Virus genome (UHGV): UHGV-0305805
DNA: 14,115 nt
From: a virus
Reading direction: 5' to 3' (one strand)
Positions 1-14,115 of this stretch are shown piece after piece. Made by a program: the position numbers and the translations under genes. How positions within the stretch are numbered: position 1 is the first letter of the stretch; every line of letters begins with the position of its first letter. The notes beneath the pieces were generated by a model, which did not search any database, was not told the DNA's origin, and worked only from the letters and a program-made list of their open reading frames with translations.

Positions 1-133
1 AACAGCATACAGAAGGGGCTTAAAAGCCCCTTTAGTGTTTTATGGGTGAAAAAATTATGAAGAGTATGGAAATCCGGTCATCGGAAATCACTACCAGCGG
101 AGCCGGTACGCTGACGGGCTACGTTGTTCGCTG
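1..133. repeat. Inverted repeat, left copy: exact reverse complement of 3003-3135
   Basis: Base-by-base comparison: 1-133 equals the reverse complement of 3003-3135, and identity stops at 134 (g versus t). It contains the palindromic hairpin GGGGCTTAAAAGCCCC (14-29) plus T-rich tract, and the first ~30 codons of the protease gene. Confidence 0.9.
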
Positions 134-614
134 GGATAAGCTTTCAGAACTGCTATGGGGGGAGTTTTACGAAAAATTCCAGCGGGGGGCGTTTACTGAG
201 TGGCTTGCGGCGGGTAATGACGTTCGCGGCCTGTATGAGCATGACCACAGCATGTTACTGGGGCGCACCCGTTCCGGCACGCTGAAACTGGAAGAGGACG
301 AAACAGGGTTACGCTTTGAACTGACCCCACCGGATACCAGTACAGGGCGCGACGTTATCGAACTGGTTAAGCGTGGGGACATCTCGGGGATGAGCTTTGG
401 CTTTCGCTCCCGTAAGGATGTATGGGATACCACAACAGATCCATGCGTGCGCACCGTGCTGGTGGCGGAACTGTACGAAATTACCGTTACATCGGTACCG
501 GCTTACCCCGATTCCGGCGTGGAGCTGGCCCGCCGTTCCCTGTATGAGCAGCACCCCGAAAAAATGCCGCGTGCGGATAATCGCCGCTGGTGGGTGGATT
601 TAGCGGGGGTGTGA
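42..614 (+). CDS. Prohead maturation protease, HK97 / S78 family
   Basis: 190-aa ORF with the conserved histidine context LYEHDHSMLLGRT and serine context DISGMSFGF typical of this protease family. Stop overlaps the portal start region. A likelier start is ATG at 57, preceded by GGGTGA. Confidence 0.85.
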   Translation: MGEKIMKSMEIRSSEITTSGAGTLTGYVVRWDKLSELLWGEFYEKFQRGAFTEWLAAGNDVRGLYEHDHSMLLGRTRSGTLKLEEDETGLRFELTPPDTSTGRDVIELVKRGDISGMSFGFRSRKDVWDTTTDPCVRTVLVAELYEITVTSVPAYPDSGVELARRSLYEQHPEKMPRADNRRWWVDLAGV

Positions 615-615
615 T

Positions 616-1827
616 ATGTGGCCTTTCAGAAGAAAAAAAGAGCAGCGCAGCATGACGCTGGATGAATTTATGGCGCTGGCTGGCACATCGAACACGGGGG
701 CGGGTGAGTACGTATCATCGGGGACAGCGGAATCACTGCCCGCCGTCATGAACGCCGTGACGGTCATCTCTGAGGCGGTGGCTACCATGCCGTGTTACCT
801 GTACCTGGTACGCAATGAGAAGGGGAAGGAGGCCCGCGAGTGGCTTGATTCTCATCCGGTCGATCACATCCTCAACGAGCGCCCGAACGCATGGCAAACC
901 CCCTACCAGTTTAAGCGAATGATGATCCGCCACTGCCTGTTAAACGGTAATGCTTATGCGGTGATTCAGTGGGGGCGTGATGGTTTTCCGGCGGCTTTAC
1001 ATCCTTACCCGCCGCAGTCGGTGAACGTGGAGCAGACAGGCGAACACAACTGGCGCTACTGCATCACTGACGCCTACACCGGAAACACCCGCAACTATTT
1101 ACCGTGGGAAGTACTTCACCTTCGTTACTCCACGGATGACGGCTTTATGGGGCGCTCACCTGTAACCATCTGCCGCGAATCGCTGGGGCTTGGGCTGGCC
1201 CAACAACGCCACGGCGCGAGCGTGATGCGTGATGGCATGATGGCGGCAGGGGTTATCACGTCAGGCGAATGGCTGGACGGCGTGAAGGGCAAACAGGCAT
1301 TAGCCGCACTGGAACGCTACAAAGGGGCCAGAAACGCCGGAAAAACGCCCATCCTTGAAGGGGGTATGAGCTATCAGCAGCTGGGCATGAGTAATCAGGA
1401 TGCTGAATGGCTGGCCTCCCGTCGCTTCACCATTGAAGACATCGCCCGAATGTTCAACGTCTCGCCGATTTTTTTGCAGGAATACAGCAACAGCACCTAC
1501 AGCAATTTCAGCGAGGCAAGCCGCGCATTTCTCACCATGACGATGCGCCCGTGGCTGGCGAACTTTGAGCAGCAGATAAAAAACGCCCTGCTGGTGGCCT
1601 CGCCTGTACCTGGTATCCGGTATCAGGTGGAGTTTGACAGCGCGGACCTGTTACGGGCCACACCTGGCGAACGCTTTGCCACCTATGAGCGCGGCATCAA
1701 ATCCGGCGTTATGTGTCCGAACGAAGCCCGCGAACGTGAAGGTCTGTCACCGCGTGATGGTGGTGATGAGTTCAGCCAGGCATGGAAACAGGAAGTAAAA
1801 ATCAGCGAGGGAGAAAAACCGGAATGA
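616..1827 (+). CDS. Phage portal protein (HK97-family-like)
   Basis: 403-aa ORF immediately after the protease and followed by head-completion genes; size and position fit a portal. Its stop overlaps the next start (ATGA). Confidence 0.75.
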   Translation: MWPFRRKKEQRSMTLDEFMALAGTSNTGAGEYVSSGTAESLPAVMNAVTVISEAVATMPCYLYLVRNEKGKEAREWLDSHPVDHILNERPNAWQTPYQFKRMMIRHCLLNGNAYAVIQWGRDGFPAALHPYPPQSVNVEQTGEHNWRYCITDAYTGNTRNYLPWEVLHLRYSTDDGFMGRSPVTICRESLGLGLAQQRHGASVMRDGMMAAGVITSGEWLDGVKGKQALAALERYKGARNAGKTPILEGGMSYQQLGMSNQDAEWLASRRFTIEDIARMFNVSPIFLQEYSNSTYSNFSEASRAFLTMTMRPWLANFEQQIKNALLVASPVPGIRYQVEFDSADLLRATPGERFATYERGIKSGVMCPNEAREREGLSPRDGGDEFSQAWKQEVKISEGEKPE

Positions 1828-2162
1828 ACATAGGGCGACTGCGTGACAGGATAACGATTCAGACCCTGAAACAGACCAGGGATATAACCGGCGAAATACT
1901 CGAAACGTGGGAGGACGGTCACACACTCTGGGCAAGCGTGAACATGGTCAGCAGCAAGGAGGCCATTTCATCGGGCGCAGAGCTGGCGATTGGTACCGTA
2001 AGGATCTGGATACGGTACCGGAAGGACATCAACGCCACCAGCCGGATAAAGGTCAGTACGGGGCCGCTGGCGGGGCGTGTACTGAATATCATCGGGCAGC
2101 CGCTGCCGGATGCCGCCAGGACACGCCTTGAAATTCTTTGTCGTGAGGGCGCGGAAAAATGA
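1824..2162 (+). CDS. Head closure / head-tail joining protein
   Basis: About 112 aa starting MNIGRLRDRITIQ at an ATGA overlap with the portal stop; contains an IRYRKDI-type motif common in head-tail joining proteins. The ORF track extends it to 1782. Confidence 0.6.
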   Translation: MNIGRLRDRITIQTLKQTRDITGEILETWEDGHTLWASVNMVSSKEAISSGAELAIGTVRIWIRYRKDINATSRIKVSTGPLAGRVLNIIGQPLPDAARTRLEILCREGAEK

Positions 2163-2455
2163 CAGAAGAACTTATCACCCTGGAAGAAGTGAAACTCCAT
2201 TGCCGCATCGATGGCGACGATGAAGACCAGTTAATCAGCGGATACATTGCCGCATCGCTTGAGGCGTGCCAGATACACATAGGCAGGCGCTTTGATGACG
2301 GGCTGGAGTTCACGCCAGCCATAAAGATTGGCTGCATGATGTTTATCGCTCACCTGTATGAAAATCGCCAGATTGTCGCGGATAACGCAAAAACACGCGT
2401 ACCCATGACGATAGGCGCACTCTGGACGGCTTACCGTGATGTGGGGGTGTACTGA
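2159..2455 (+). CDS. Head-tail connector (gp6-like DNA-packaging / connector protein)
   Basis: 98 aa; N-terminal ITLEEVKLHCRIDGDDEDQLI resembles the conserved N-terminus of gp6-type connectors. Translationally coupled on both sides. Confidence 0.65.
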   Translation: MTEELITLEEVKLHCRIDGDDEDQLISGYIAASLEACQIHIGRRFDDGLEFTPAIKIGCMMFIAHLYENRQIVADNAKTRVPMTIGALWTAYRDVGVY

Positions 2456-2895
2456 TGCCGTGGCAACCATTAAGACGATGCACAGAACCAGGCTGTAACA
2501 GGCGCGTTAAATCCGGCAAGTGTGAGGAGCACAGGCGGGCGGCATGGCGTGCAGAGGATGCCAGACGAGGACACCGCCGCGCGCGTGGATATTCCAGACA
2601 GTGGGACAAATACCGCGCCATGTATCTGAGTAAAAACCCGTTATGCGTGCGATGCCTTGAGAAGGGGATATATACGCCCGCCGTGGTGGTGGATCACATT
2701 ATCCCGATTAATGGCGGTGATGATGTTCTCTTCTGGCCCGAATGGAACCATCAACCATTGTGCCAGGCGTGTCATAACCAGAAAACGAAATGGCTTGATC
2801 CGGCAACAAAAAGCAAGCGTGCCGCAGGTGGATTTCGTGAAGAGGAAGAACGGGCCGCTAACCGCAATAACTGGATGTATGACGCTGATGAATGA
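2455..2895 (+). CDS. HNH endonuclease (packaging-associated)
   Basis: 146 aa with paired cysteine motifs (CTEPGCNRRV, CVRCLEKG) and the catalytic-type region VVDHIIPINGGDD...NHQPLCQACHNQKT. Confidence 0.85.
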   Translation: MPWQPLRRCTEPGCNRRVKSGKCEEHRRAAWRAEDARRGHRRARGYSRQWDKYRAMYLSKNPLCVRCLEKGIYTPAVVVDHIIPINGGDDVLFWPEWNHQPLCQACHNQKTKWLDPATKSKRAAGGFREEEERAANRNNWMYDADE

Positions 2896-3058
2896 GCGGG
2901 AACAAAACCGCCTTATCCGTGGACTTATAAGGCAGCGTGACGCATGGAAGACACAGGAAACAGGGCATAAAGATAAAGCGTCAGGACGCGCAGAACGCAT
3001 CACAGCGAACAACGTAGCCCGTCAGCGTACCGGCTCCGCTGGTAGTGATTTCCGATGA
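2888..3058 (+). CDS. Short ORF (56 aa) whose last 18 codons lie inside the inverted repeat; possible 5' remnant of a disrupted gene downstream of HNH
   Basis: ATG at 2888 overlaps the HNH stop. Codons 1-38 are unique sequence; the remainder is antisense of the protease 5' end supplied by the repeat. The longer 2657-3058 version in the ORF track overlaps HNH out of frame. Confidence 0.2.
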   Translation: MNEREQNRLIRGLIRQRDAWKTQETGHKDKASGRAERITANNVARQRTGSAGSDFR

Positions 3059-3135
3059 CCGGATTTCCATACTCTTCATAATTTTTTCACCCATAAAACA
3101 CTAAAGGGGCTTTTAAGCCCCTTCTGTATGCTGTT
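3003..3135. repeat. Inverted repeat, right copy: exact reverse complement of 1-133
   Basis: Same comparison as the left copy. The repeat ends one base short of the last capsid codon position (capsid stop is the complement of 3134-3136). Confidence 0.9.
3091..3121 (-). terminator. Intrinsic terminator after the capsid gene
   Basis: GC hairpin GGGGCTTTTAAGCCCC at 3106-3121; on the minus strand it is followed by TTTAGTGTTTT. A second copy sits at 14-39 inside the left repeat. Confidence 0.6.
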
Positions 3136-4291: not shown

Positions 4292-4328
4292 AAAAAAAGT
4301 CCTGGGGTTAAGTAAGGAACTCCAGGAC
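4292..4328 (-). terminator. Leader hairpin plus U7 tract directly abutting the capsid start codon; the Shine-Dalgarno lies in the 3' arm
   Basis: Minus-strand RNA reads GUCCUGG...CCAGGAC then UUUUUUU then AUG. Stem 4299-4305 pairs with 4322-4328 and can extend by about 3 more pairs; AGGA is inside the 3' arm. Confidence 0.5.
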
Positions 4329-4503
4329 GCGGCAAAAACTCAACCGTTTTTCATAAGGAAATCAGCAATCGCACCGATCGTTTTCCCGCCTGGTAATGAA
4401 TATTGGCGAGAACATTAACAGGCGGAAAAGTGGCCCCAGCGTCCTGGCACCACGGGCGAGAATAATCATGATTCAGTTCGGGTAAAATATGCCGATCCGC
4501 TCA

Positions 4504-4532
4504 GTGAACAACGTGGAACAACCACGAACAAA
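4504..4532. promoter_or_regulatory. Phased GAACAA hexamers (x3, 10-bp spacing) including CAACGTGGAACAA; upstream of the capsid gene
   Basis: GAACAA at 4506, 4516 and 4526; the 13-mer CAACGTGGAACAA at 4509-4521. Confidence 0.4.
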
Positions 4533-4540
4533 TAATTTAC

Positions 4541-4572
4541 AAAACATGACAAAAAGCCGGATTGCTCCGGCT
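4541..4572 (-). terminator. Intrinsic terminator after the PerC-like gene
   Basis: Minus strand: AGCCGG-agcaat-CCGGCT followed by TTTTTGTCATGTTTT. Confidence 0.6.
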
Positions 4573-4578
4573 GTGTGA

Positions 4579-4860
4579 TTATCTGTCCTGGTAATTTCGC
4601 CATATTTCATTACCAGCACCATCCATACCCATTTCGGCATAAGTGCGATCGACCGCCTTTTTCAGGTCTCCGTAGTTATCCGGCGGCTCCGGTGGCCTCT
4701 GTGCCTTCCTGGAACATTCCAGCCGTCGCATCGTGATGTGATGCCGTTCCTTGTCTGTCTCCACCAGTTGCATGACTTCACCCCATCGCGCCGACGCTCT
4801 CCGGTAAAAGCCTTTCGCCTCCAGTTCTTCCGCTATGCGGTCATGTACCATCGTCCCCAC
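4579..4860 (-). CDS. Small regulator, PerC / ANR-like (tentative)
   Basis: 93 aa; the segment AEELEAKGFYRRASARWGEVM resembles the motif I recall for PerC/ANR-family small regulators. This is from memory and was not searched. Confidence 0.5.
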   Translation of the reverse strand: MGTMVHDRIAEELEAKGFYRRASARWGEVMQLVETDKERHHITMRRLECSRKAQRPPEPPDNYGDLKKAVDRTYAEMGMDGAGNEIWRNYQDR

Positions 4861-4863
4861 CCC

Positions 4864-5274
4864 TCAGAACGGAATATCATCACCGTAAGGGTCATCGCCT
4901 CCCGCTGGTGGCTGATTACCCTGTGTGCCTGTGGTCTTGCGTCGGCTCCCACCAGGACGTGCCGCACGGGCACTGATTACGCTGTCTGCAATAACCTGAT
5001 AACCCTGCCGCGTTTCCCCGTTCTGTCCGGTCCACTGGCTGACCTGCATCGTGCCGGATACGCTGGCAACGTCGCCTTTTTGATGTTTAGCCAGGAAGTC
5101 GGCCTGCTTACCAAATGCGATGACCGATAGCCATAACGTCGCCTGTCCATCCTGTGCCTGGCTGCATGGCAGCGATACCGCCATACGCGCCAGCGTCATC
5201 GGTGTACCCTTGCTGGTCTGTTTTACCTGCGGGTCGTCCACCAGCCGCCCGTAAGCTGCTATCTGTGCTGTCAT
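4864..5274 (-). CDS. ssb: Single-stranded DNA-binding protein
   Basis: 136 aa; Gly/Pro/Gln-rich linker and an acidic C-terminal tail ending DDIPF, the hallmark SSB tip. Confidence 0.8.
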   Translation of the reverse strand: MTAQIAAYGRLVDDPQVKQTSKGTPMTLARMAVSLPCSQAQDGQATLWLSVIAFGKQADFLAKHQKGDVASVSGTMQVSQWTGQNGETRQGYQVIADSVISARAARPGGSRRKTTGTQGNQPPAGGDDPYGDDIPF

Positions 5275-5549
5275 GATTCCACCTCTCCGGTTTTAACGTT
5301 GATGGTTGTTACCTGTTCCGCTTCGGCAATCTCCCGCTCTGTCAGCGTGGCAAAATTTGCCGCCGTCGTGGTCATGAATGCGCTTATCAGTTCGGGATGT
5401 GCTTTCGCGTATCCTTCCCCCGCGTGGCGGTCTATCGTTCTGATTGCCACCTTTAAAGCGTGCTCTGTCATGTCTAACGCGCGATATTTCGGTTCTGTTC
5501 TGTCTCTGCGTTTTTTGAGTGATTTATTAAATTTCCCTGAAGTGTGCAT
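5271..5549 (-). CDS. Hypothetical protein (92 aa)
   Basis: ORF between the origin iterons and ssb; its stop overlaps the ssb start (ATGA). Weak ribosome-binding site. Confidence 0.45.
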   Translation of the reverse strand: MHTSGKFNKSLKKRRDRTEPKYRALDMTEHALKVAIRTIDRHAGEGYAKAHPELISAFMTTTAANFATLTEREIAEAEQVTTINVKTGEVES

Positions 5550-5597
5550 ATTTATTTTTACCCCCTCGTTTAAAAAGTTTTGAGTTGTGCCTCCCCT

Positions 5598-5824
5598 TGT
5601 CTACCTTATCTACCTTAGTGGCCCTCATACCAGTAATGGCGCGGCTTTCAGCGGGGTAGAGTGCTTTTATCCACTATCTACCCCGTGTCTACCTCCCTGT
5701 CTGATTCAGGTAAAATCAGGTAGAGAGGGTAGATAGTGGGTAGACAGTAAAAAAAGGTTATCTACCTAACTTAATGCACTGAATTAAATGTATTTTTCTT
5801 TACTCAGGTAGACAGGGTAGACAG
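5598..5824. repeat. Iteron array, putative origin of replication (GGTAGACAG family, both orientations, with an AT-rich tract)
   Basis: At least 11 copies of GGTAGA[C/G/T]AG or its complement at 5598-5614, 5653-5661, 5674-5693, 5719-5747 (three in tandem), 5758-5766 and 5807-5824 (two in tandem). AT-rich stretch at 5770-5805. Immediately downstream of the primase gene. Confidence 0.75.
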
Positions 5825-5837
5825 CAATTACAAAAAA

Positions 5838-7592
5838 TTATAAAAACGCGTCGCACTCGTCTGTTGTTATTGCGTTAGTCTGCGTTACTCCCTTAACTTT
5901 CCGCGTAATATATTCATGTCCGTAAACTTTCGCGGCTGGCTTCATAGCCTTGCCAAAGTCATTTACGTTTAGCGGTTTGCTCCTGCCTGCGTACGCCATA
6001 AACGCCAGATAGACGCGGTAAAGGCTGTTTCTGGTCGTGTACTTCACTGAATCGCCACCGCCGCCCATCATCAGGCCGCGTGCTTCCTCCAGAAAATTCA
6101 GGAACTGGCAAAACTCAATAACCGGATCCGTCTGTTGCTTTATTGCCAGAGCTTCATCACCGTCACGCTGTTCCAGTAGTAAAGCCCGTGCCTTCTCAGG
6201 GTCGGTAAAGTTCGCCAGCAATCGGCGGATAATGACAGGGATTTCAGCCGCGATCTTTTCCGGTAGCTCCCTGTCTTTTTCGGCCTCACTGACGATATTG
6301 TCGAAACGGAAAATCACGCGACGACGTGCCACACCTCCGGCCCGTTCGGTGAATATCATCGGGTTATTGTTGGTCGCCAGCACCACCGCCCTGATTACCG
6401 CCGTGAAACGCTTTTCGTATTTCGGGTTAATTTCCACGGGGTCACCGCCCGTGATTTTCTTGATGCCCGTTCCTTCGCCTGTATATTTCGGCTGGTCAGC
6501 CAGGACGATAAGACGACTCCCGACAACCTGCGCACGTCCACCAGCATCATCAAGCGATGTCATTTCAGCGCTTACCGTGTTCTGTTTCCCTGCCAGAAGG
6601 CTGGCTATGTGTGTGAATGTACTTTTACCGCTCCCGCCGTCTCCGGTGGCCTCAATAAACATCTGCCAGTCGTACCGGTTCGCCATAATCATGTACAGCG
6701 CGGCACATATACGCATCATCTTGCGCGGGTCTTTTCCGGCTGCGTGCTCAAGCCATTTATGAAAGTTTGGCGCGTTATCGCGGATGTTCTCCCCTGGTGC
6801 TGGTGGCGTGTACTCAATGCCGTTGTGCGTGGTGATCCAGTTCTCCGGCGTGTGCGGGGAAAATTCCCCCGTTTTCAGGTCAAGCGCACCATTGGCGAAC
6901 GGCAACAAATCGCCGGACGGCTCGCCCATTGGTTCGGCAATAACTTTTAACGCTTCCACGGCGTTATTGATTACGCGCTTGCTGAAAGTGGCCCTGTGCT
7001 CTGAATAGATCGCCACCATTTCGCGGCTAAGTTCCATTGTGCTGACCGGACACCATACCCCGCCGCGCCATACGTGAACGATTTCACTTTCAGGATGTAC
7101 GCAAACGCCATCAAAGCGATCGGCAAGCAGCTGCGCGCGCTCACTGTCCGCCATCTGCGAAAGTTGCGCCTTTTGCTTTACCGGAAGCTCAATGACCAGA
7201 CCATCAGAAAGATTCTGGCGCTCACGGGCCAGATATTCGCGCCAGTTCTCCACCTTCTGACCGTGCATACCATCAGGGTAAAAATTTGCATCCTGTACGC
7301 CTGCCGCCGCCAGCTTCTGACCAATCGCCTTTATCATTACTGGCGCAAGATATCCGGCCCTGAATATGCGCACGGATTTTCTGCCTTCCGGCACAATTTG
7401 CAGCTTATCCAGTTCGGATAACTGCTGCTCCCCAAGCCACACAGGAGGCTCATTATCTCCGGCCATACGCGCGTCATGTTCCTGCCATTGTTTTGCGTGT
7501 GACCAGGCATCACTACCCGCAAAAATAATGACTTCTGTTTCTTTGTGTTTTATGCCGCGTGACTGCTGTTTTACGTTCGGTGCCAGTTTCAT
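5838..7592 (-). CDS. Primase / replicative helicase, P4-alpha-like
   Basis: 584 aa; Walker A GDGGSGKST and Walker B-like LIVLADQP in the C-terminal half, with a primase-like N-terminal half. Start overlaps the upstream ORF stop (ATGA). Confidence 0.85.
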   Translation of the reverse strand: MKLAPNVKQQSRGIKHKETEVIIFAGSDAWSHAKQWQEHDARMAGDNEPPVWLGEQQLSELDKLQIVPEGRKSVRIFRAGYLAPVMIKAIGQKLAAAGVQDANFYPDGMHGQKVENWREYLARERQNLSDGLVIELPVKQKAQLSQMADSERAQLLADRFDGVCVHPESEIVHVWRGGVWCPVSTMELSREMVAIYSEHRATFSKRVINNAVEALKVIAEPMGEPSGDLLPFANGALDLKTGEFSPHTPENWITTHNGIEYTPPAPGENIRDNAPNFHKWLEHAAGKDPRKMMRICAALYMIMANRYDWQMFIEATGDGGSGKSTFTHIASLLAGKQNTVSAEMTSLDDAGGRAQVVGSRLIVLADQPKYTGEGTGIKKITGGDPVEINPKYEKRFTAVIRAVVLATNNNPMIFTERAGGVARRRVIFRFDNIVSEAEKDRELPEKIAAEIPVIIRRLLANFTDPEKARALLLEQRDGDEALAIKQQTDPVIEFCQFLNFLEEARGLMMGGGGDSVKYTTRNSLYRVYLAFMAYAGRSKPLNVNDFGKAMKPAAKVYGHEYITRKVKGVTQTNAITTDECDAFL

Positions 7593-7888
7593 TTTTTACC
7601 CCTGAATCCGTTAATCATGGTTTTCAGCTTCTGGATGTTTGCCCGTGCCCTGGCGTTGCTGGTGGACACGTTATGCGGCGCGGTCTGTACCAGAGAAAAA
7701 TCACGCCGGAACTGATAAACAGGCATCACGCAATCATATTCGTAACCTTCACGGCGGTAGGTTACGCGCCGTTCTTCCACGCCCTTAATCATTACCGTGC
7801 CGCCGTACTGGTCGCGGTAAATATCGCCGCGCGTAAATTTAGGGTGAGTGTTGCCACTGGCAGTTAAGCCAGAATATTTAAGTTTCAT
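7589..7888 (-). CDS. Hypothetical protein (99 aa), translationally coupled to the primase
   Basis: ATG at 7886-7888; stop overlaps the primase start. Confidence 0.55.
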   Translation of the reverse strand: MKLKYSGLTASGNTHPKFTRGDIYRDQYGGTVMIKGVEERRVTYRREGYEYDCVMPVYQFRRDFSLVQTAPHNVSTSNARARANIQKLKTMINGFRGKK

Positions 7889-7893
7889 TATTT

Positions 7894-8127
7894 TTATTCT
7901 CCGGTGTGCTGTTCTTTATATCTGTCGTGCAATAGATCTATTTCTTGCAGTTCCATTATTACAGGCTCAAGAAGCGTTATTAATGCCGTGGCAATTCTTG
8001 ATTTTTGTTTGTCGCGTTCATTGTCGCCAAGTGTTTCAAGCCATATGCGCAATATTTCCAGCATGTTTTCACTGTGAGAAAGTGCAAGAAATGCGCGGTC
8101 TATTGTTTCGTGGTAAATATCACGCAT
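7894..8127 (-). CDS. Hypothetical protein (77 aa)
   Basis: ATG with GAGGA upstream; overlaps the stop of the upstream ORF by 8 nt. Confidence 0.55.
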   Translation of the reverse strand: MRDIYHETIDRAFLALSHSENMLEILRIWLETLGDNERDKQKSRIATALITLLEPVIMELQEIDLLHDRYKEQHTGE

Positions 8128-8353
8128 GGCTTACATCCTCAGGAAATTTTCTTCTATAACGCGCCTCTGCCACATATTCCGCATAATCGGCGGCGATATT
8201 CAGTACATCAAGCCCCGTTGATTTATATTCTCTCGTGGAAAGTAAGAAAAAAGCCGCTCTAATAAGTTCTGGCATTGACGAAAGCGCATCAGCCGCATCA
8301 TCAGGAACGCCGGAAAATTCCTGTTTCAGGGAATTAAAACGATCATCACGCAT
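8120..8353 (-). CDS. Hypothetical protein (77 aa)
   Basis: ATG with GGGGGG upstream; 8-nt overlap with the upstream ORF. Confidence 0.55.
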   Translation of the reverse strand: MRDDRFNSLKQEFSGVPDDAADALSSMPELIRAAFFLLSTREYKSTGLDVLNIAADYAEYVAEARYRRKFPEDVSHA

Positions 8354-8711
8354 GTTTACCCCCCTGAATGACCTGATAACCGCAACTGGTCAGCAACTCG
8401 ATAAATTCCGGCAGTGTGCCGAAACAGCAATCATCACGCAGCCGTTCACAGGATACCTCGACGCCGTTTTCGTAGTGACTCACCATACATCCGGTAAAAT
8501 GCAGATCATCATCGTGATGGCTCGTTGACGGCTTAATCAGTCGCGCACGTTCCGCCAGTTCCAGCAATGCTTCAACGCTTCCGGCAATTGCACCATCCGG
8601 CAGGTGATAATTACGCACTATGCGCCCGTTCTCCACATTGACCAGCAACTGCCCGGTAAATTTCTCATCAAACTGAATGCTGTTAAGGTCAGAAATTGAC
8701 AGATTATGCAT
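8346..8711 (-). CDS. Hypothetical protein (121 aa)
   Basis: ATG at 8709-8711 preceded by a perfect AGGAGG at about 6-nt spacing. The ORF track extends it to 8729. Confidence 0.6.
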   Translation of the reverse strand: MHNLSISDLNSIQFDEKFTGQLLVNVENGRIVRNYHLPDGAIAGSVEALLELAERARLIKPSTSHHDDDLHFTGCMVSHYENGVEVSCERLRDDCCFGTLPEFIELLTSCGYQVIQGGKHA

Positions 8712-8928
8712 GGTGCACCTCCTGCACATCAGCCATGATAATTTTTCCGGCCTTATCCAGTGCCTGATCGGCTTTTAGCTGCACAAATGCTAAATAATGG
8801 AAGATGCATTCTGATTCTCTGGCTGCGTGTTTATGCGCCCTGTCAGCAATAACAGAAATATCAATAAGCGCGTGCATCAGCGTAGTGAGCGCGGCGGCGG
8901 CTGCGTCCGGTGTGGTTTTATTGCACAT
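8704..8928 (-). CDS. Hypothetical protein (74 aa)
   Basis: ATG at 8926-8928 preceded by GGAGGGG. The ORF track extends it to 8982. Confidence 0.5.
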   Translation of the reverse strand: MCNKTTPDAAAAALTTLMHALIDISVIADRAHKHAARESECIFHYLAFVQLKADQALDKAGKIIMADVQEVHHA

Positions 8929-9148
8929 GTACCCCTCCGCATTTTTTTTCGTTAGAAATAAGCGTTCTTCTTTCCTGTTCATCGCTCAGGAATACGCAGA
9001 CCTCACCGCTAAGGCGTTTAAGTAAGCCGATGATTGCCCCTGATTCGCTGTCGGTCATCATGCCAGGGTAATCCTCTGCCAGTGCGCAAATAACTTCGAT
9101 TTGGTGGGCGCGTTCTGCTGCCTGTTGTAGTGTGATTTCCTGGCTCAT
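8918..9148 (-). CDS. Hypothetical protein (76 aa)
   Basis: ATG at 9146-9148 preceded by GGGGGTAGG; ATGA overlap with the upstream ORF. Confidence 0.55.
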   Translation of the reverse strand: MSQEITLQQAAERAHQIEVICALAEDYPGMMTDSESGAIIGLLKRLSGEVCVFLSDEQERRTLISNEKKCGGVHVQ

Positions 9149-9345
9149 AAGCCTACCCCCTGACGAATACGGGCAGCAAATACCATCACGCAGCCAGCCG
9201 GAGATTGCTGGCGTGCTTCCTGTTCGCTGGTGGCCTCAATGGTAATCACGCGCGGTTGTGCCGTGCTCAGGGCGATAAAACGCCAGATGTATTTATTCAG
9301 GTTGTGCGAGTCCCGCCCTTGCGGGTGTGTGGTATGATTTCTCAT
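9145..9345 (-). CDS. Hypothetical protein (66 aa), first gene of the leftward operon
   Basis: ATG at 9343-9345 preceded by GAGGTAG. It is the C-terminal part of a 340-aa ORF in the track that I regard as spurious upstream of this start. Confidence 0.5.
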   Translation of the reverse strand: MRNHTTHPQGRDSHNLNKYIWRFIALSTAQPRVITIEATSEQEARQQSPAGCVMVFAARIRQGVGL

Positions 9346-9441
9346 AGCTACCTCGATACTTTCGCTATCGTTGGTGGTTAGAAGCCCGGTTAGTGTTAGC
9401 GCACTGCCGGGTTTCGTCGTTTCTGCACCTTGCGCCAACAA

Positions 9442-9495
9442 GGTGTTGAACACCAATTTAAACCCAGGTGTTAAACACGTCAAGTGTTGAACACT
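9442..9495. promoter_or_regulatory. Three palindromic operator-like sites, GTGTT-N-AACAC, between divergent promoters
   Basis: GGTGTTGAACACC at 9442-9454, GTGTTAAACAC at 9468-9478, AGTGTTGAACACT at 9483-9495; centres 25 and 16 bp apart. The third overlaps a -35-like TTGAAC for the rightward gene. Confidence 0.6.
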
Positions 9496-9544
9496 TATTT
9501 TTTTTCCTGCATACTGCATTTGTTTTTTATGAGGGGTACACCAC

Positions 9545-9724
9545 ATGGCGACAAAAGCGGTAAACGCAAAATCACAAACCGTTGCGGCAAGGGTTCCGCA
9601 TGAAGTTATGAACAATGTTGAGGCGGTAAAAATGCCTGGCGAAAGTACGGGGCAATTTGTTACTGCGGCATTAAAACGAGAAGTTGAATATCGCCAGCGG
9701 CGCAAGGCCAAAGAACCAGAGTAA
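9545..9724 (+). CDS. Ribbon-helix-helix (Arc/CopG-like) DNA-binding protein, candidate repressor
   Basis: 59 aa, ATG preceded by GAGGGG at 8-nt spacing. Sequence fits a beta-strand (TVAARVPHEV) followed by two helices; basic C-terminus. Below the 60-aa cutoff of the ORF track. Confidence 0.55.
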   Translation: MATKAVNAKSQTVAARVPHEVMNNVEAVKMPGESTGQFVTAALKREVEYRQRRKAKEPE

Positions 9725-9781
9725 TCACCATCAGCGCCGTGGTGTAAGGTATTACGGCGCATTGCTATGCAGGACAACACA

Positions 9782-9955
9782 ATGACCGATAAAGAATTGA
9801 CCAAAACATTATCACCGGCACGGAAAAGACGGCGCAGAAAGATAGAGCATGAATCAGAAAGATTCGCGCCATGTGCTTTTGCCCTTGAGCAATTCCTTAA
9901 AGAGTACAGGGAAAAGCGCTCATTGCAGGTATGGCAACGAACTGAACCAGACTGA
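9782..9955 (+). CDS. Small basic protein (57 aa), possibly co-transcribed with the ribbon-helix-helix gene
   Basis: ATG at 9782 with AGGA about 9 nt upstream; arginine/lysine-rich (ARKRRRRKIEHE). Coding status uncertain. Confidence 0.3.
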   Translation: MTDKELTKTLSPARKRRRRKIEHESERFAPCAFALEQFLKEYREKRSLQVWQRTEPD

Positions 9956-10050
9956 TTGCATTGCCCACCAGCCTGATAACGGCTATCATCCCCGTGCTTA
10001 TGTTTGGGATCACACACACAAACGGCGCAGCGGGTTATCTGTTCAGAAAG

Positions 10051-10078
10051 GCGGCTCCATTTCGGGGCCGCTTTTTTT
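10051..10078 (+). terminator. Intrinsic terminator ending the rightward transcript
   Basis: GCGGCTCC-attc-GGGGCCGC followed by seven T. Confidence 0.65.
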
Positions 10079-10224
10079 ATACCTGAAAAACCCCAATTTT
10101 GTTGTTTTTCAGTTTCACCAGGGCGAACGAATCCCCGCCCACGTTCTGGCGTATATTCAATCTTCATGGTTATAGCTCTGTGTTCAGATGATTGATGTGT
10201 GGCGGCTGCGTGCCGCCAGCGTGA

Positions 10225-10413
10225 TTAATGAACTGCCTTGCAGCTATCCTTCCAGGCCAGAACCTCGGATAAAGACCAGCCAACGGAACGACCGCCAAGT
10301 TTACGACGTGATGGGAATTGTCCGGCCTTTTCCAGGCGGTAGCGACACGTACGGCTAAGGCCGGTTAGTTTTTCGCATTCTTTTTCACGTATAAACCGAT
10401 CAGTGCTTAACAC
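10225..10413 (-). CDS. alpA: AlpA-family phage regulatory protein (helix-turn-helix activator)
   Basis: Contains EKLTGLSRTCRYRLEKAGQFPSRRKLGGRSVGWSLSEVLAW, matching the AlpA helix-turn-helix signature. Likely start is GTG at 10411-10413 preceded by AGGGGGG; the ORF track extends it to 10494 with a TTG start. Confidence 0.8.
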   Translation of the reverse strand: MLSTDRFIREKECEKLTGLSRTCRYRLEKAGQFPSRRKLGGRSVGWSLSEVLAWKDSCKAVH

Positions 10414-10686
10414 TATTGCCCCCCTTTCGTTTCTTAAAGAGTCATCAGGTGTCTTATTGTGTCGTATTGTTCCCGCTAGAGTGATGAATGGCAAATACTG
10501 AGGATGTATGATTTACAGAAAATGAAACAGTAAGAATAAAATCTTTTAAATTCATGTTAATACAAAGGCATAAAATATTGTTCCATGCCTTTTTTCTCGC
10601 TCTTTAAAGAGTGATTCGCTAGTGTACAAAAAACCAGTAACGCATTAAAAATCAGCCACTTATAAATCCGTACGCTTTTTCGCCTC

Positions 10687-10730
10687 TTGTTCGTAGTTGT
10701 TCCACATTGTTGCTCATTGTTGCACGTTGT
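10687..10730. promoter_or_regulatory. Phased TTGTT[C/G] hexamers (x4, exactly 10-bp spacing) ending in the complement of CAACGTGCAACAA
   Basis: TTGTTC at 10687 and 10697, TTGTTG at 10707 and 10717; the 13-mer at 10717-10729. Located between the integrase stop and alpA, in opposite orientation to the other three clusters. Confidence 0.4.
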
Positions 10731-10778
10731 ATCTGTTCGCATATCCAGTATGCGCATACTGAAAAAACACGAAAAAAA

Positions 10779-12008
10779 TTATTTTCTTCTGGCTACGGGT
10801 AGCGTGGTTACGTTTTCATGTGTTCCCGCCAGTATCCCTAACCGCTCCGTCCACATATCCAGCGCATTGCGTTTCGCATCCAGATAACGGGAATGATTAT
10901 AAACTCGCTGCATTCCTGGCATCTGGTGGCCTGTAAGCTGCTCCACGACATGCGGATCAACGCCTAAATCGTTCAGCATGGTTGTAAAGGTGCGCCGGAT
11001 GTCATGCAGTGACCAGTGAGGGTGATTAAGCCTCCTGTACGCTAATCTTCCATACTGCGATACGCTGGCCTCCTGTTTCACTTCCCCCAGCAATAAGCCC
11101 GTGTGCCTGTTCTGCTCCACCAGCTGCGTGACGAACGGCAGGATCGCTTCCGGTATGGGCCGGAATATTGCGACCTTCGTTTTGCTGTGCTCCTTCGGAA
11201 CGGTCCATAGCATTTCCGTAAAATCCCACTCCCCGATCTCCGATAACCTCAGTTCTACCGTTCTGGCTCCGAAGACAATCAGGAGGCGGATTAACGCGAC
11301 GTAGTAAGGGGAGAATATTTTTTTGTCCAGTGCCTGCAATAATTCGCCAAGTTCTTTGTTACTTAAGACACGTTCGCTTATATCCGGTTTTTTCCCAACG
11401 TCCGCAACGTTCAGATCGTCCAGAACGTTGCTGATTGCATAGCGCCGCCTACGGCAGAACTTAAGCGCCTGTTTGCACGCCTGTAGCACGAATCCGGCAG
11501 TAACAGGCGTTCGCTTTGCCACCTGGTCAAAACAGGCCAGCCAGTGCCGTAGCTCGCATTTATCCAGCGGCATAGCACCAATCTGCTGTATTACGTGATT
11601 ATTAAGTCGCCTTTTCAGGGCGATATAATCCACGCGGTTTTCCTTTACGTAATACTCAAGCCAGTAGGTGAGCGCATCGCCAACCGTTACGGGCTTTAAC
11701 GCTTCCTGTACGGTGTAATTCATCTCATGACGTGGATTTTTCCCCTCAGCCAGCCATGTGCGACACTGTGCGGCTTTTTCCCTGGCTGCTTTCAGGCTCA
11801 GATCAGGATAACTTCCCAGCTTAATGCGTTCGGGTCGTGTCTCCCTTCCCGTTCCGGCCCTGTATGTGAAATACCAGGTCAATTTCCCTGATGTTAAATA
11901 TTTCACGCTCAGGTTTCCGCCATCACTATAAAACGTGTTTTTCTCCGCTGGCTTACCATGAAGTTTCCTTAGCAAGGTATCGCTCAGTTTGTTCATTGCT
12001 CTGCTCAC
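10779..12008 (-). CDS. int: Tyrosine recombinase / integrase, P4-like
   Basis: 409 aa with catalytic-region motifs ARTVELR, HDIRRTF and a C-terminal YNHSRYLD tyrosine context. Start could be GTG at 12008 or ATG at 11996. Confidence 0.9.
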   Translation of the reverse strand: MSRAMNKLSDTLLRKLHGKPAEKNTFYSDGGNLSVKYLTSGKLTWYFTYRAGTGRETRPERIKLGSYPDLSLKAAREKAAQCRTWLAEGKNPRHEMNYTVQEALKPVTVGDALTYWLEYYVKENRVDYIALKRRLNNHVIQQIGAMPLDKCELRHWLACFDQVAKRTPVTAGFVLQACKQALKFCRRRRYAISNVLDDLNVADVGKKPDISERVLSNKELGELLQALDKKIFSPYYVALIRLLIVFGARTVELRLSEIGEWDFTEMLWTVPKEHSKTKVAIFRPIPEAILPFVTQLVEQNRHTGLLLGEVKQEASVSQYGRLAYRRLNHPHWSLHDIRRTFTTMLNDLGVDPHVVEQLTGHQMPGMQRVYNHSRYLDAKRNALDMWTERLGILAGTHENVTTLPVARRK

Positions 12009-12033
12009 GTTTTACCCCCTCTTTACGAAAAAG

Positions 12034-12056
12034 TGACTACACCAGTGACTACACCG
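12034..12056. repeat. 23-bp direct repeat, copy 1: TGACTACACCAGTGACTACACCG (tandem decamers)
   Basis: Exact match to 12267-12289. Sits 26-48 bp upstream of the integrase start and is followed by CAACGTGAAACAA (12076-12088) and phased GAACAA-like hexamers to about 12109. Confidence 0.8.
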
Positions 12057-12266
12057 ATCGTTGCACAAAGGGCTACAACGTGAAACAAGCTGGAACAAGG
12101 AAAATCACAAATCTGTTGATAATCAAAAACATAATGCACAGCCTGAAACATTATGAAACAGCAAAAAACACTAAATGATAAAATGCTGTTATATATAACT
12201 TATTTCGCATAACACATTGATTTAATTAAATAATTAACACCGCAAAAAGTGCCAAAAATCGCAAAA

Positions 12267-12289
12267 TGACTACACCAGTGACTACACCG
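12267..12289. repeat. 23-bp direct repeat, copy 2, followed by CAACGTGGAACAA (12309-12321)
   Basis: Exact match to copy 1. The 210 bp between the two copies is strongly AT-rich. Confidence 0.8.
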
Positions 12290-12551
12290 TTCGGTGCACT
12301 GTATGAAACAACGTGGAACAAATAGACACAAGAAATATACAGGCGGATCATCTTTCCAGGGGGAAGCACACCAATTCATGAGGGGCGTTAATGTCGATAT
12401 GGGGATCCCCACCTACCGGAATTTTTTTCCGGTTAAACGTTAATCAGGCTGGTGGGCTTTACCTGTTCGGTAGGTGTTATGATTATCGTAATACCTTTCC
12501 CCCAATGGGGTAAAAGCATCAACCGTAACGAAAGTCGTTATGGTTGCCACT

Positions 12552-12662
12552 GATACCCCAAATTTGGGTATCACGAGTAAGCCCCAAAATCTGGGTGTTA
12601 CTCTTACTACCCAAACTACGGGTAGTTTCCGTAGTTTCATGGTCGAGTTGCAGATCTGCAAC
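12552..12662. repeat. Cluster of four palindromes/hairpins in a gene-free region
   Basis: GATACCCCAAATTTGGGTATC (12552-12572); a CCCAAA...GGG unit near 12582-12597; ACTACCC-aaactac-GGGTAGT (12606-12626); perfect palindrome GTTGCAGATCTGCAAC (12647-12662). The first three share a CCCAAA-N-GGG(T) core spaced about 26 bp. Confidence 0.5.
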
Positions 12663-12918
12663 TCCCCCATTAACCACAGGCGAATTTCCGCCTTCGGTCA
12701 TTCCTTAATCATCTGCGTAATCATAATGATTATTCAGCAAGCGCAATTTTGCGCTTTGCTTAAAGTTCAGCGAGTTACCGCGCCGACTTCCTCAAATTGA
12801 GGTTTCCGAAAATATCAGCGGGTTAGCGATTAAGCTGACCATTAATTAAACTGCGAAAATGTCGTAGTTGTGAGGGGTGTAGCCAACCCATTTTTGGGCC
12901 GTCGGGAATATCAACCAG

Positions 12919-13200
12919 TTACCGCCGCAACCGCTCCGGCTTCTTCCAGTGGTACGTTATTTTCTCCTTCTCCCGATACATCTCCACGCGGCGACGGTAG
13001 GCCAGCAACTCAAGAACTCTGGTTCGTATGTTGCGCATATCCACGCCATTAAGTTCTATACCATCACGGCGCATCACCTCAGCAACAACACGCGCATAGT
13101 TTTCGGCTGTCACGCTGTCCGGCTGCGTGGCCTGTTCGTCAGCCTGCTGGCTGATTCCGGCAACGCGGCGGATTAATCCCGTTATTTCGGCTTCTGTCAT
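12919..13200 (-). CDS. Hypothetical protein (93 aa) downstream of the terminase fragment
   Basis: ATG at 13198-13200 with GAGG 8 nt upstream; starts 11 nt after the terminase-fragment stop; composition is protein-like. Confidence 0.5.
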   Translation of the reverse strand: MTEAEITGLIRRVAGISQQADEQATQPDSVTAENYARVVAEVMRRDGIELNGVDMRNIRTRVLELLAYRRRVEMYREKEKITYHWKKPERLRR

Positions 13201-13213
13201 GCTGCTGACCTCA

Positions 13214-13963
13214 TTACACCCCGCTAAATTCTTCCAGTTTCTGGCGGTGGCTGTCGCTTATATCAAAAGCAAAATCCTCATGCTCTGCCTGGAATGTACC
13301 AAACGCCATCAGCGCCGCCACGCTCGGGTCTATCTTGTTCGGTGATTTTTTCTTGTTCGGCTTGATATTGGCGTTCGCGTCACTCTGCATCACGACGTTA
13401 CTCATCGACCAGGACAACACCGGATCGCCACGATGCACAATCACCCTGCGGTTAACAAAAACTTCGAACGATTTCGCCGCCGGACTGAATCTGAGGTAGG
13501 TTTGCGGGAACGGCTCCACCTCAAAACCTGCCCCCTGTAATTGCGTTCTGAGATGCGTGGCGTTCCACGTATCAAAGCCCACCAGCCTGATATTAAATTT
13601 CTCCGCGTCCTGCATGATGTCATCTCTGATCCGGTCGTAATCAATGCAGTCGCCAGGCGTTGTGCGTATCCAGCCTGCTTTAGCCCACTGACGATAGATG
13701 GCGCGGTTTTTATTGGCGGGGTTCTGTAGCTGAAATTCCGGCAGATAGTGACGGGAAACCAGCATAATGGTTTTACCGACCGGAAAGGCATAGCACACGC
13801 TGGAAATATCGCTGGTTGATGATAAGTCCAGCCCCGCGTAACACTCCTGGCCGTGTAAATCTTCCTCCGTGAACGTTCCGGCACACTCAGCCCATGCGCC
13901 GTTACCCATCCACGGGGTAGCCCCCTGGCACCAGATATTAAATCGCTTTGTCATCATCTCCAC
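13214..13963 (-). CDS. Terminase large subunit, C-terminal nuclease domain only (N-terminal ATPase absent; truncated or rearranged)
   Basis: 249 aa with acidic nuclease-type motifs YAGLDLSSTSD, LVGFDTWN and KIDPSVAALMAF. No Walker A. The reading frame upstream is closed by a stop about 12 codons before the start, and the start lies inside an inverted repeat. Confidence 0.65.
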   Translation of the reverse strand: MEMMTKRFNIWCQGATPWMGNGAWAECAGTFTEEDLHGQECYAGLDLSSTSDISSVCYAFPVGKTIMLVSRHYLPEFQLQNPANKNRAIYRQWAKAGWIRTTPGDCIDYDRIRDDIMQDAEKFNIRLVGFDTWNATHLRTQLQGAGFEVEPFPQTYLRFSPAAKSFEVFVNRRVIVHRGDPVLSWSMSNVVMQSDANANIKPNKKKSPNKIDPSVAALMAFGTFQAEHEDFAFDISDSHRQKLEEFSGV

Positions 13964-13979
13964 CCACTGCGACGGAATA
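13922..13979. repeat. Inverted repeat, inner copy: reverse complement of 14058-14115, the last bases of the window
   Basis: Exact 58-bp match separated by a 78-bp spacer (13980-14057). The outer copy runs off the window, so the repeat may be longer. Confidence 0.9.
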
Positions 13980-14057
13980 GTGGATAAAGGCGAACCCTAA
14001 TATTGATGTTTCCGTCGATCGTGAAAAACTGGCCTCAACCATCCAGAAAGCGCGGGG

Positions 14058-14115
14058 TATTCCGTCGCAGTGGGTGGAGATGATGACAAAGCGATTTAAT
14101 ATCTGGTGCCAGGGG
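14058..14115. repeat. Inverted repeat, outer copy; the plus strand here reads the sense start of the terminase fragment (…IPSQWVEMMTKRFNIWCQG)
   Basis: Reverse complement of 13922-13979; the reading frame continues off the window. Confidence 0.9.

What the first reader, a model, noticed from the sequence alone, without database searches (positions are those of the whole stretch)
13214..14115. Terminase large subunit reduced to its nuclease domain, starting inside a second inverted repeat
The only terminase-like ORF has the nuclease motifs but no ATPase domain, and its start sits in a 58-bp inverted repeat (13922-13979 against 14058-14115) that runs off the window. The plus-strand copy reads the same N-terminal peptide in sense. 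Together with the truncated ORF after HNH, the packaging module looks disrupted at two fold-back junctions. If real, the element cannot package itself; if artefactual, the true genome has an intact small and large terminase.
Basis: seen in the sequence. Interest (0 to 1): 0.6.

Follow-up and report, generated by a model that had tools for sequence, protein, structure and literature searches.

The report
Fold-back junction truncating a satellite terminase
The "nuclease-only terminase" comes from a point where this contig turns back on itself inside the large terminase gene of an ordinary, already known E. coli phage satellite (a capsid-forming PICI), whose natural copies all carry an intact small and large terminase.

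Summary
A perfect 58-nt inverted repeat (13922-13979 / 14058-14115) runs off the window, and the only terminase ORF (13214-13963, minus strand) has a nuclease domain but no ATPase domain.

It is not a gene architecture. The window is 100% identical to a 15.3-kb capsid-forming PICI inserted in tqsA of many E. coli genomes. There terL is a continuous 553-aa ATPase+nuclease gene, preceded by a P27-family terS. The window follows that element up to TerL codon 300, which is about 48 residues inside the Pfam nuclease domain. It then jumps to the opposite strand 78 nt further on and reads back. The 78-nt "spacer" plus the outer arm is simply the reverse complement of the next 136 nt of normal terL.

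A second junction of the same kind (7-nt microhomology) lies at 3002/3003. The 1,332 bases missing from the window (terL 5' part, terS, candidate cos region) lie exactly between the two junctions.

Neither junction occurs in 5,426 complete E. coli genomes, IMG/VR, JGI metagenome contigs or GTDB genomes. The normal join occurs in 67 IMG/VR contigs, and none of those has an internally truncated TerL.

The most likely cause is a template-switch or fold-back chimera carried into the assembly. Interest is low.

The parts
13214..13979 (-). 3' part of terL: codons 300-553 of the natural 553-aa large terminase. This is most of the nuclease domain; the listed ORF starts at the internal GTG at 13963 (V305).
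   Evidence: tblastn of natural TerL: residues 300-553 = window 13978-13217, 100%. Pfam TerL_nuclease only, profile 59-284/286. blastn w12184-13979 = L001 6001-7796, 100%.
13979..13980 (.). Junction J2: blunt inversion (fold-back) junction joining L001 7796 (+) to L001 7874 (-), with no microhomology.
   Evidence: The alignments abut exactly at 13979/13980. The normal continuation CCCCGCGC is replaced by GTGGATAA. The junction is absent from all collections searched.
13980..14115 (+). Reverse complement of the next 136 nt of normal terL (L001 7739-7874). It encodes TerL residues 274-318 in sense on the plus strand: a 78-nt 'spacer' (13980-14057) plus the outer arm (14058-14115).
   Evidence: blastn 100% over 136 nt on the minus strand of L001; tblastn residues 274-318 = 13981-14115.
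13922..13979 (.). Inner arm of the 58-nt perfect inverted repeat; its partner is 14058-14115.
   Evidence: I2
12919..13200 (-). Conserved 93-aa gene downstream of terL, function unknown. It is intact and part of the natural island.
   Evidence: phrog_1561, E 2.9e-56, full length; WP_000133423.1 in RefSeq.
12184..12192 (.). att core TGCTGTTAT in the attP-type (excised, concatemeric or tandem) configuration, joining the integrase end to the terL end of the island.
   Evidence: attL/attR/attP comparison. The join is contiguous only in the tandem copy of strain EC444, 1 of 212 genomes.
1..3009 (+). Inverted block: reverse complement of L001 9207-12215 (protease, portal, head closure, adaptor, HNH, and the first 43-46 codons of a 60-aa gene).
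   Evidence: blastn 100% over 3009 nt, minus strand; PHROG assignments.
3003..3009 (.). Junction J1: second inversion junction, with 7-nt exact microhomology CAGCGAA (10 of 11 over 2999-3009), joining L001 9207-9213 (-) to L001 12083-12089 (+). It creates a 59-aa chimeric ORF at 2879-3058.
   Evidence: absent from all collections searched.

Best explanation
The window is a contig of the excised, concatemeric or tandem form of a known E. coli capsid-forming PICI (cf-PICI). It contains two fold-back (inverted-join) chimeric junctions. At J2 (13979/13980) the sequence leaves terL at codon 300, jumps 78 nt ahead onto the complementary strand and reads back. This produces the 58-nt inverted repeat and an apparent 'nuclease-only' ORF that starts at an internal GTG. 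At J1 (3003-3009) a 2.9-kb block is joined in inverted orientation through 7 nt of microhomology. The packaging genes between the junctions are simply not in the contig: the terL ATPase half, terS and the GC-rich terS-upstream intergenic region (candidate cos). What is shown: the collinear map, the intact natural gene, and the absence of both junctions from public data. What is inferred: the junctions arose when a 3' end mis-primed on a nearby strand of opposite polarity. That would have happened during in-vitro strand-displacement amplification or library preparation, or less likely as a dead-end replication by-product. The assembler then walked through them and stopped shortly after re-entering sequence it had already used, which is why both outer arms lie at the window ends. 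The natural element packages itself with its own HNH-TerS-TerL machinery.
For: The window consists of three blocks, each collinear with the natural island, and only two novel joins. It is 100% identical over 2999-13979 to islands in many complete E. coli genomes, where terL is 553 aa with TerL_ATPase + TerL_nuclease and terS lies upstream. The spacer plus outer arm is the exact reverse complement of the next 136 nt of normal terL. The break lies inside the nuclease domain, and the ORF start is internal codon V305. Zero of the 359 complete genomes carrying this stretch span J2 or J1. There are zero exact matches for either junction in IMG/VR, JGI metagenome contigs or GTDB genome contigs. The normal join is found in 67 IMG/VR contigs: 62 encode a full-length contiguous TerL, 5 are cut only by the contig end, and none is internally truncated. 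Both outer arms touch the window ends. The joined segments are 78 nt and 2.87 kb apart, inverted, with 0 and 7 nt of microhomology. This is the form reported for MDA chimeras: over 85% are inverted joins with an intervening deletion, mostly under 10 kb apart, and over 70% have 2-21 nt of complementarity (PMC1855051). The contig carries the attP-type join, so it comes from excised or packaged island DNA; such DNA is often low-input material (the low-input part is inference).
Against: No reads, coverage or library metadata are available, so the in-vitro origin is inferred rather than shown. The arm lengths (133 exact or 137 near-exact, and 58) fit no common k-mer overlap, so the way the assembler ended the contig is unexplained. 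J2 has no microhomology, which is the minority class for MDA chimeras. I could not find the source contig, so I cannot tell whether the arms continue beyond the window. Absence from databases does not exclude a private, sample-specific rearrangement.
Confidence: 0.85

Rival explanations
1. A real in-vivo rearranged molecule. A replication template switch or fold-back repair in the excised, replicating island produced an inverted-duplication (dumbbell or inverted-dimer) derivative lacking terS and the terL ATPase half. That derivative was abundant enough in the sample to be assembled. It would be a defective dead-end molecule, unable to package itself.
For: The junction anatomy (nearby inverted joins, 7-nt microhomology at J1) also fits in-vivo fork template switching. 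The contig is in the excised or tandem configuration, so it comes from a state in which the island may be replicating. The missing segment lies exactly between the two junctions, so a single closed structure with no normal copy is formally consistent.
Against: Neither junction is seen in any genome or contig collection. The rearrangement breaks the capsid-to-terminase operon (MCP on one strand; protease to HNH on the other) and removes terS, terL-N and the candidate cos region. It could not spread, so it should not reach high abundance. The closed inverted-dimer form would be about 24.9 kb (my arithmetic), more than one 15.3-kb island genome, which is the DNA the small T=4 cf-PICI capsid is described as accommodating (10.1101/2025.02.11.637232).
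Confidence: 0.08
2. A heritable natural variant: a cf-PICI lineage with a degenerate packaging module. Its TerL is reduced to a nuclease, and it relies on a helper phage's terminase.
For: The ORF keeps what look, on my own reading of the sequence, like the catalytic acidic motifs of the nuclease fold (GLDLS, FDTWN, DPSVAA). Classical PICIs do rely on helper terminase subunits (10.1101/2022.09.08.507074).
Against: The cut is inside the nuclease domain and the start is an internal codon with no upstream gene context. The flanking sequence is an inverted duplicate of the gene itself, not a deletion scar. Nucleotide identity to intact islands is 100%, so there has been no divergence that would indicate a lineage. 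There are zero instances among 67 IMG/VR loci or 359 complete genomes.
Confidence: 0.02
3. A purely computational misjoin: a de Bruijn graph false join, or mis-oriented contigs concatenated during scaffolding, with no chimeric DNA molecule behind it.
For: Both inverted repeats touch the window ends, as expected when an assembler stops at repeats. Block C is only 136 nt, about one short read.
Against: J2 has no shared sequence at all and J1 has only 7 nt, far below any assembly k, so a graph cannot create these joins without reads that contain them. Seven nucleotides of microhomology at a random concatenation point has a chance of about 6e-5 (4^-7, my arithmetic). The partners lie 78 nt and 2.9 kb away on the same 15-kb element, which points to an intramolecular event. 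There are no N gaps.
Confidence: 0.05

Closest known systems
[quoted passage not shown]
   Same: The natural element is 15.3 kb and carries int, an AlpA-type regulator, a primase, then capsid-protease-portal-head closure-adaptor followed by hnh-terS-terL. It has no tail or lysis genes. This is the proteobacterial cf-PICI gene order. The same stretch occurs at about 95-98% identity in O157:H7, O26 and O103 genomes.
   Different: The window copy lacks terS and the terL ATPase half, and a 2.9-kb block is inverted. All of this is attributable to the two chimeric junctions rather than to the element itself. I did not compare it directly with the EcCIEDL933 sequence.
The unnamed tqsA-inserted island of E. 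coli SCU-204 (NZ_CP053251.2 2387804-2403075) and many other strains; TerL WP_001560954.1
   Same: 100% nucleotide identity over window 1-3009, 12184-13979 and 13980-14115, and 2 mismatches over 2999-12192.
   Different: It is integrated (attL/attR) and collinear, with a complete terL and terS. The window is in the attP-type configuration with two inversion junctions.
Inverted chimeras from multiple displacement amplification (Lasken and Stockwell 2007, PMC1855051)
   Same: [quoted passage not shown] They are less than 10 kb apart, with short complementarity at one junction (7 nt, within the reported 2-21 nt range).
   Different: Use of MDA for this sample is unknown. J2 has no complementarity, which is the minority class in that study. 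Chimeras normally stay at low frequency and do not dominate an assembly.
HK97-type large terminases that need an HNH partner (Pfam PF03354 TerL_ATPase + PF20441 TerL_nuclease)
   Same: The natural protein has both domains, with an HNH gene and a P27-family TerS next to it.
   Different: The window ORF has only profile positions 59-284 of the nuclease domain.

Membership tests
cf-PICI (criteria of 10.1101/2025.02.11.637232, methods section 39) | Size about 10-18 kb | tested here: met
   The natural island is L001 6001-21272, 15,272 bp between TGCTGTTAT direct repeats in tqsA.
cf-PICI | Integrase plus regulation and replication modules | tested here: met
   Integrase phrog_1 (E 7e-72), excisionase/regulator phrog_2790 (E 8e-18), primase phrog_864 (E 1e-175) on the window's own ORFs.
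cf-PICI | Own capsid module: capsid, protease, portal, adaptor, connector | tested here: met
   phrog_10, phrog_80, phrog_12, phrog_40 (Ad1), phrog_25 (Hc1).
cf-PICI | Own packaging module: HNH, small terminase, large terminase | tested here: inconclusive
   Met in the natural island: HNH, PF05119 TerS, and PF03354+PF20441 TerL. Not met in the window: HNH is present, TerS is absent, and TerL covers only residues 300-553. The deficit coincides with the two chimeric junctions.
cf-PICI | No lysis genes and no complete tail module | tested here: met
   None of the 26 RefSeq-annotated CDS of the island is a tail or lysis gene, and the unassigned ones are all small, the largest being 366 nt. Ten window ORFs were scanned with PHROGs and none fell in a tail or lysis category. 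The other small ORFs were not scanned individually.
cf-PICI | Induced by a helper phage, forms small capsids and uses helper tails | not testable with these tools
   Requires experiments.
Functional large terminase (TerL) | N-terminal ATPase domain with Walker A and B motifs, continuous with the nuclease domain | tested here: not met
   The window ORF has no PF03354 match. The natural gene has one at residues 71-242, with PRKNAKST and LSIVDEYH as I read them in the translation.
Functional large terminase (TerL) | Complete C-terminal nuclease domain | tested here: not met
   The window ORF covers profile positions 59-284 of 286, against 4-284 in the natural protein. About 48 residues of the domain are lost.
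MDA-type inverted chimera (artefact class, PMC1855051) | [quoted passage not shown] | tested here: met
   J2 joins L001 7796(+) to 7874(-), 78 nt apart. J1 joins L001 9207(-) to 12083(+), 2.87 kb apart.
MDA-type inverted chimera | Short complementarity (2-21 nt) at the junction (over 70% of cases) | tested here: inconclusive
   J1 has 7 nt exact (10 of 11); J2 has 0 nt.
MDA-type inverted chimera | The sample was amplified by strand-displacement synthesis, and the junction is supported only by a minority of reads | not testable with these tools
   The source, reads and library metadata are unknown. The source contig was not found.

The most novel reading that the evidence does not exclude
The fold-back junctions are real in-vivo products. 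While the excised cf-PICI replicates, template switching near the packaging genes and candidate cos region generates inverted-duplication (dumbbell or inverted-dimer) molecules lacking terS and terL-N. These would be a defective by-product population of a phage satellite, abundant enough in the sample to be assembled.
Probability: 0.07. Interest if true: 0.35.

Novelty: not a real feature. Interest (0 to 1): 0.08.

Why it matters
It matters mainly as quality control. A gene caller or a satellite-finding pipeline run on this contig would report a cf-PICI with a missing TerS and a 'nuclease-only' TerL. It might then score the element as a degenerate or novel variant, when it is base-for-base identical to a common, intact E. 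coli cf-PICI. Two signs flag the problem without reads: a perfect inverted repeat that touches a contig end, and a 'spacer' that encodes the same gene in sense on the other strand. If the junctions did prove real in unamplified DNA, they would document defective inverted-repeat derivatives of a phage satellite. That would be of modest interest.

Tried and rejected
1. I looked for the source contig by exact protein look-up of the 249-aa ORF and of the 59-aa chimeric ORF across J1. Neither is on record.
2. I looked for either junction in IMG/VR, JGI metagenome contigs and GTDB genome contigs.
3. I tested whether the arm lengths reveal an assembler k. The single mismatch in the 137-nt arm lies inside the junction microhomology, not at a k-related distance. 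The exact arms are 133 and 58 nt, so there is no consistent k-1 signature, and I dropped the idea.
4. I considered a single simple inversion explaining both junctions. The four breakpoints (7796/7874 and 9207/12083) do not pair as one inversion, and both junctions carry duplications, so I rejected it.
5. I considered inversion of the block between J1's two breakpoints (about L001 9214-12082) by recombination across the imperfect 11-nt inverted repeat in a mixed population. J1 fits one expected junction, but the window start carries the normal configuration on the other side. It would have to be a walk through a mixed graph, which cannot be separated from a fold-back without reads.
6. I considered a break at the cos site. 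J1 lies 50-170 nt from the GC-rich terS-upstream intergenic region and inside a small ORF, and J2 is 1.2 kb away. Neither is a cos end. A promoter/terminator scan of that region was uninformative.
7. The attP-type join is not present in IMG/VR.
8. The phage collection holds only a 79%-identical Klebsiella phage segment.

Full report
**Observation.** The repeat scan finds a perfect 58-nt inverted repeat, 13922-13979 against 14058-14115, with 78 nt between the arms. The outer arm ends at the last base of the window. The same scan shows a second inverted repeat that touches the other end of the window: 1-137 against 2999-3135, 99% complementary. The only terminase-like ORF is 13214-13963 on the minus strand (249 aa, GTG start). 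It matches Pfam TerL_nuclease (PF20441, E 3.8e-35), but only over profile positions 59-284 of 286, and it has no ATPase match.

**What the window is.** A megablast of the whole window against 5,426 complete E. coli genomes gives 100% identity over 2999-13979 in many chromosomes. In strain SCU-204 (locus L001) the matching element is a 15,272-bp island inserted in tqsA. It carries:
- a tyrosine integrase, an HTH regulator, Icd-like genes, a primase, SSB and PerC;
- then major capsid protein, HK97-type prohead protease, portal, head closure and head-tail connector;
- then HNH endonuclease, a 60-aa gene, a P27-family small terminase, a 553-aa large terminase and a 93-aa gene.

PHROG scans of the window's own ORFs confirm integrase, excisionase/regulator, primase, capsid, protease, portal, Hc1, Ad1 and HNH. 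[quoted passage not shown] It also matches the proteobacterial gene order, with morphogenesis genes first and then hnh-terS-terL (10.1101/2022.09.08.507074). The element is a known kind of phage satellite.

**Base-level map.** The window consists of three blocks, each collinear with the natural island:
- **Block A:** w1-3009 is the reverse complement of L001 9207-12215 (100%).
- **Block B:** w2999-12192 is L001 12079-21272 (2 mismatches), continuing as w12184-13979 = L001 6001-7796 (100%).
- **Block C:** w13980-14115 is the reverse complement of L001 7739-7874 (100%).

The join at w12184-12192 is the 9-nt att core TGCTGTTAT in the attP-type configuration. Among 212 complete genomes with this stretch, only the tandem copy in strain EC444 has it. 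The contig therefore derives from excised, concatemeric, packaged or tandem island DNA.

Only two joins are novel:
- **J2 (13979|13980)** is blunt. It links L001 7796 on one strand to L001 7874 on the other.
- **J1** links L001 9207-9213 (minus) to L001 12083-12089 (plus) through 7 nt of exact microhomology, CAGCGAA (10 of 11). The single mismatch of the 137-nt arm lies inside this microhomology, so the exact arm is 133 nt.

The 1,332 bases of the island that are absent from the window (L001 7875-9206) lie exactly between J2 and J1. They hold the terL ATPase half, terS, the GC-rich terS-upstream intergenic region (my candidate for cos) and the 3' end of the 60-aa gene.

**Consequences for the 'nuclease-only terminase'.** The natural TerL reads ...KARGIPSQWVEMMTKRFNIWCQG.... 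It has TerL_ATPase at residues 71-242 and TerL_nuclease at 252-530. I read PRKNAKST as a Walker-A-like motif and LSIVDEYH as a Walker-B-like motif in that translation; this is my reading, not a motif scan. The window's minus-strand copy is collinear with residues 300-553 only. The listed GTG start is internal codon V305. The cut lies about 48 residues inside the Pfam nuclease domain, not at the ATPase/nuclease boundary. The plus strand of 13981-14115 encodes residues 274-318 in sense. The '78-nt spacer' is therefore terL coding sequence, and spacer plus outer arm is just the next piece of the normal gene flipped over. This is the anatomy of a fold-back (inverted) junction with a 78-nt loop, not of a deletion or a domain loss. 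J1 has the same anatomy with a 2.9-kb loop. It fuses the first 43-46 codons of the 60-aa gene after HNH to antisense protease sequence, which gives the 59-aa chimeric ORF at 2879-3058.

**Is either junction seen anywhere else?** No.
- A 101-nt query across J2 and a 111-nt query across J1 each hit 359 complete E. coli genomes, but no place covers 80% or more of either query. Each genome matches only one side.
- Exact 32-nt (J2) and 36-nt (J1) junction patterns have no match in IMG/VR, JGI metagenome contigs or GTDB genome contigs.
- As a positive control, the normal sequence across the J2 breakpoint occurs in 67 IMG/VR contigs.
- In 62 of those the TerL is full length and contiguous, in 5 it is cut only by the contig end, and in none is it internally truncated.

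**Mechanism.** Because J2 shares no bases and J1 shares only 7, neither can be a false join of a de Bruijn graph. The joins must exist in DNA molecules or reads. A random concatenation would show 7 nt of microhomology with probability about 6e-5 (4^-7, my arithmetic), and would not pick partners 78 nt and 2.9 kb away on the same 15-kb element. The events were therefore intramolecular, and at least J1 was annealing-primed. This is the form described for chimeras of multiple displacement amplification: more than 85% are inverted joins with an intervening deletion, they are favoured within 10 kb, and more than 70% have 2-21 nt of complementarity (PMC1855051). Low-input virion or excised-element DNA is the sort of material that gets amplified; that step is inference. 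An assembler that follows such a junction re-enters its own sequence on the other strand and stops, which explains why both outer arms lie at the window ends. The arm lengths (133 and 58 nt) do not fit a single k-1, so I cannot name the assembler behaviour. That point remains unexplained.

**Rivals.**
- **A real in-vivo template-switch product** (a defective inverted-duplication molecule) has the same junction anatomy and cannot be excluded without reads. However, it breaks the capsid-to-terminase operon and removes terS, terL-N and the candidate cos region. Its closed form would be about 24.9 kb (my arithmetic), more than one 15.3-kb island genome, which is what the small T=4 capsid is described as accommodating. 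It could not propagate. I give it about 8%.
- **A heritable lineage with a nuclease-only TerL** is contradicted by the intra-domain cut, the internal start codon, the 100% identity to intact islands and the absence of any second instance. I give it about 2%.
- **A purely computational misjoin** is unlikely for the reasons given under Mechanism. I give it about 5%.

[quoted passage not shown] The finding itself is not a real biological feature. A specialist would not be surprised. Its value is as a warning about inverted-repeat contig ends in satellite and virome catalogues.

**Limits.** I could not identify the source contig or sample. I have no reads and did not compare the island directly with the EcCIEDL933 sequence. 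The candidate cos position rests only on base composition and gene position.

Noticed in passing
window 1-137 / 2999-3135, junction at 3003-3009: The other inverted repeat is the same kind of junction (J1). A 3-kb block (protease to HNH) is joined in inverted orientation through 7 nt of microhomology, CAGCGAA. The one mismatch of the 137-nt arm lies inside the microhomology. The junction creates a 59-aa chimeric ORF (2879-3058) from the first 43-46 codons of a 60-aa gene plus antisense protease sequence.
   Followed up: yes
window 12184-12192: attP-type join with the 9-nt core TGCTGTTAT; the island's chromosomal site is tqsA. Of 212 complete E. coli genomes with this stretch, only strain EC444 (NZ_CM128674.1) has the join, because its assembly carries tandem copies of the island.
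   Followed up: partly
window 12033-12055 and 12266-12288: Tandem pairs of GTGACTACACC lie on each side of the att core, inside 76-nt direct repeats. There are 4 hits against 0.15 expected. They are likely integrase arm-type binding sites.
   Followed up: partly
window 4507, 10697(-), 10717(-), 12074, 12084, 12307: An AACAACGTGGAACAA-like motif gives 6 hits against 0.07 expected. The sites lie next to att, downstream of int and upstream of the capsid operon. It may be a regulator or recombination-factor site; its function is unknown.
   Followed up: no
window 12919-13200 (-): A conserved 93-aa gene lies immediately downstream of terL. It matches phrog_1561 over its full length (E 2.9e-56), has no known function and has no Pfam match.
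   Followed up: partly
L001 9033-9154 (absent from the window): The GC-rich intergenic stretch between the 60-aa gene and terS (ggtgcccggcggggtcgggtttgtcctgaaaacgccccccaccccg) is a candidate cos site of the island. It lies in the segment missing from the window.
   Followed up: no
PQ569648.1 91881-92611 (Klebsiella phage P12620-1, 106.5 kb): This is the only hit in the phage collection. It has 79% nucleotide identity to the terL nuclease part and is annotated as a hypothetical protein.
   Followed up: no
window 10657: A single C/T difference from SCU-204. It is the only mismatch to that genome outside the J1 microhomology.
   Followed up: no
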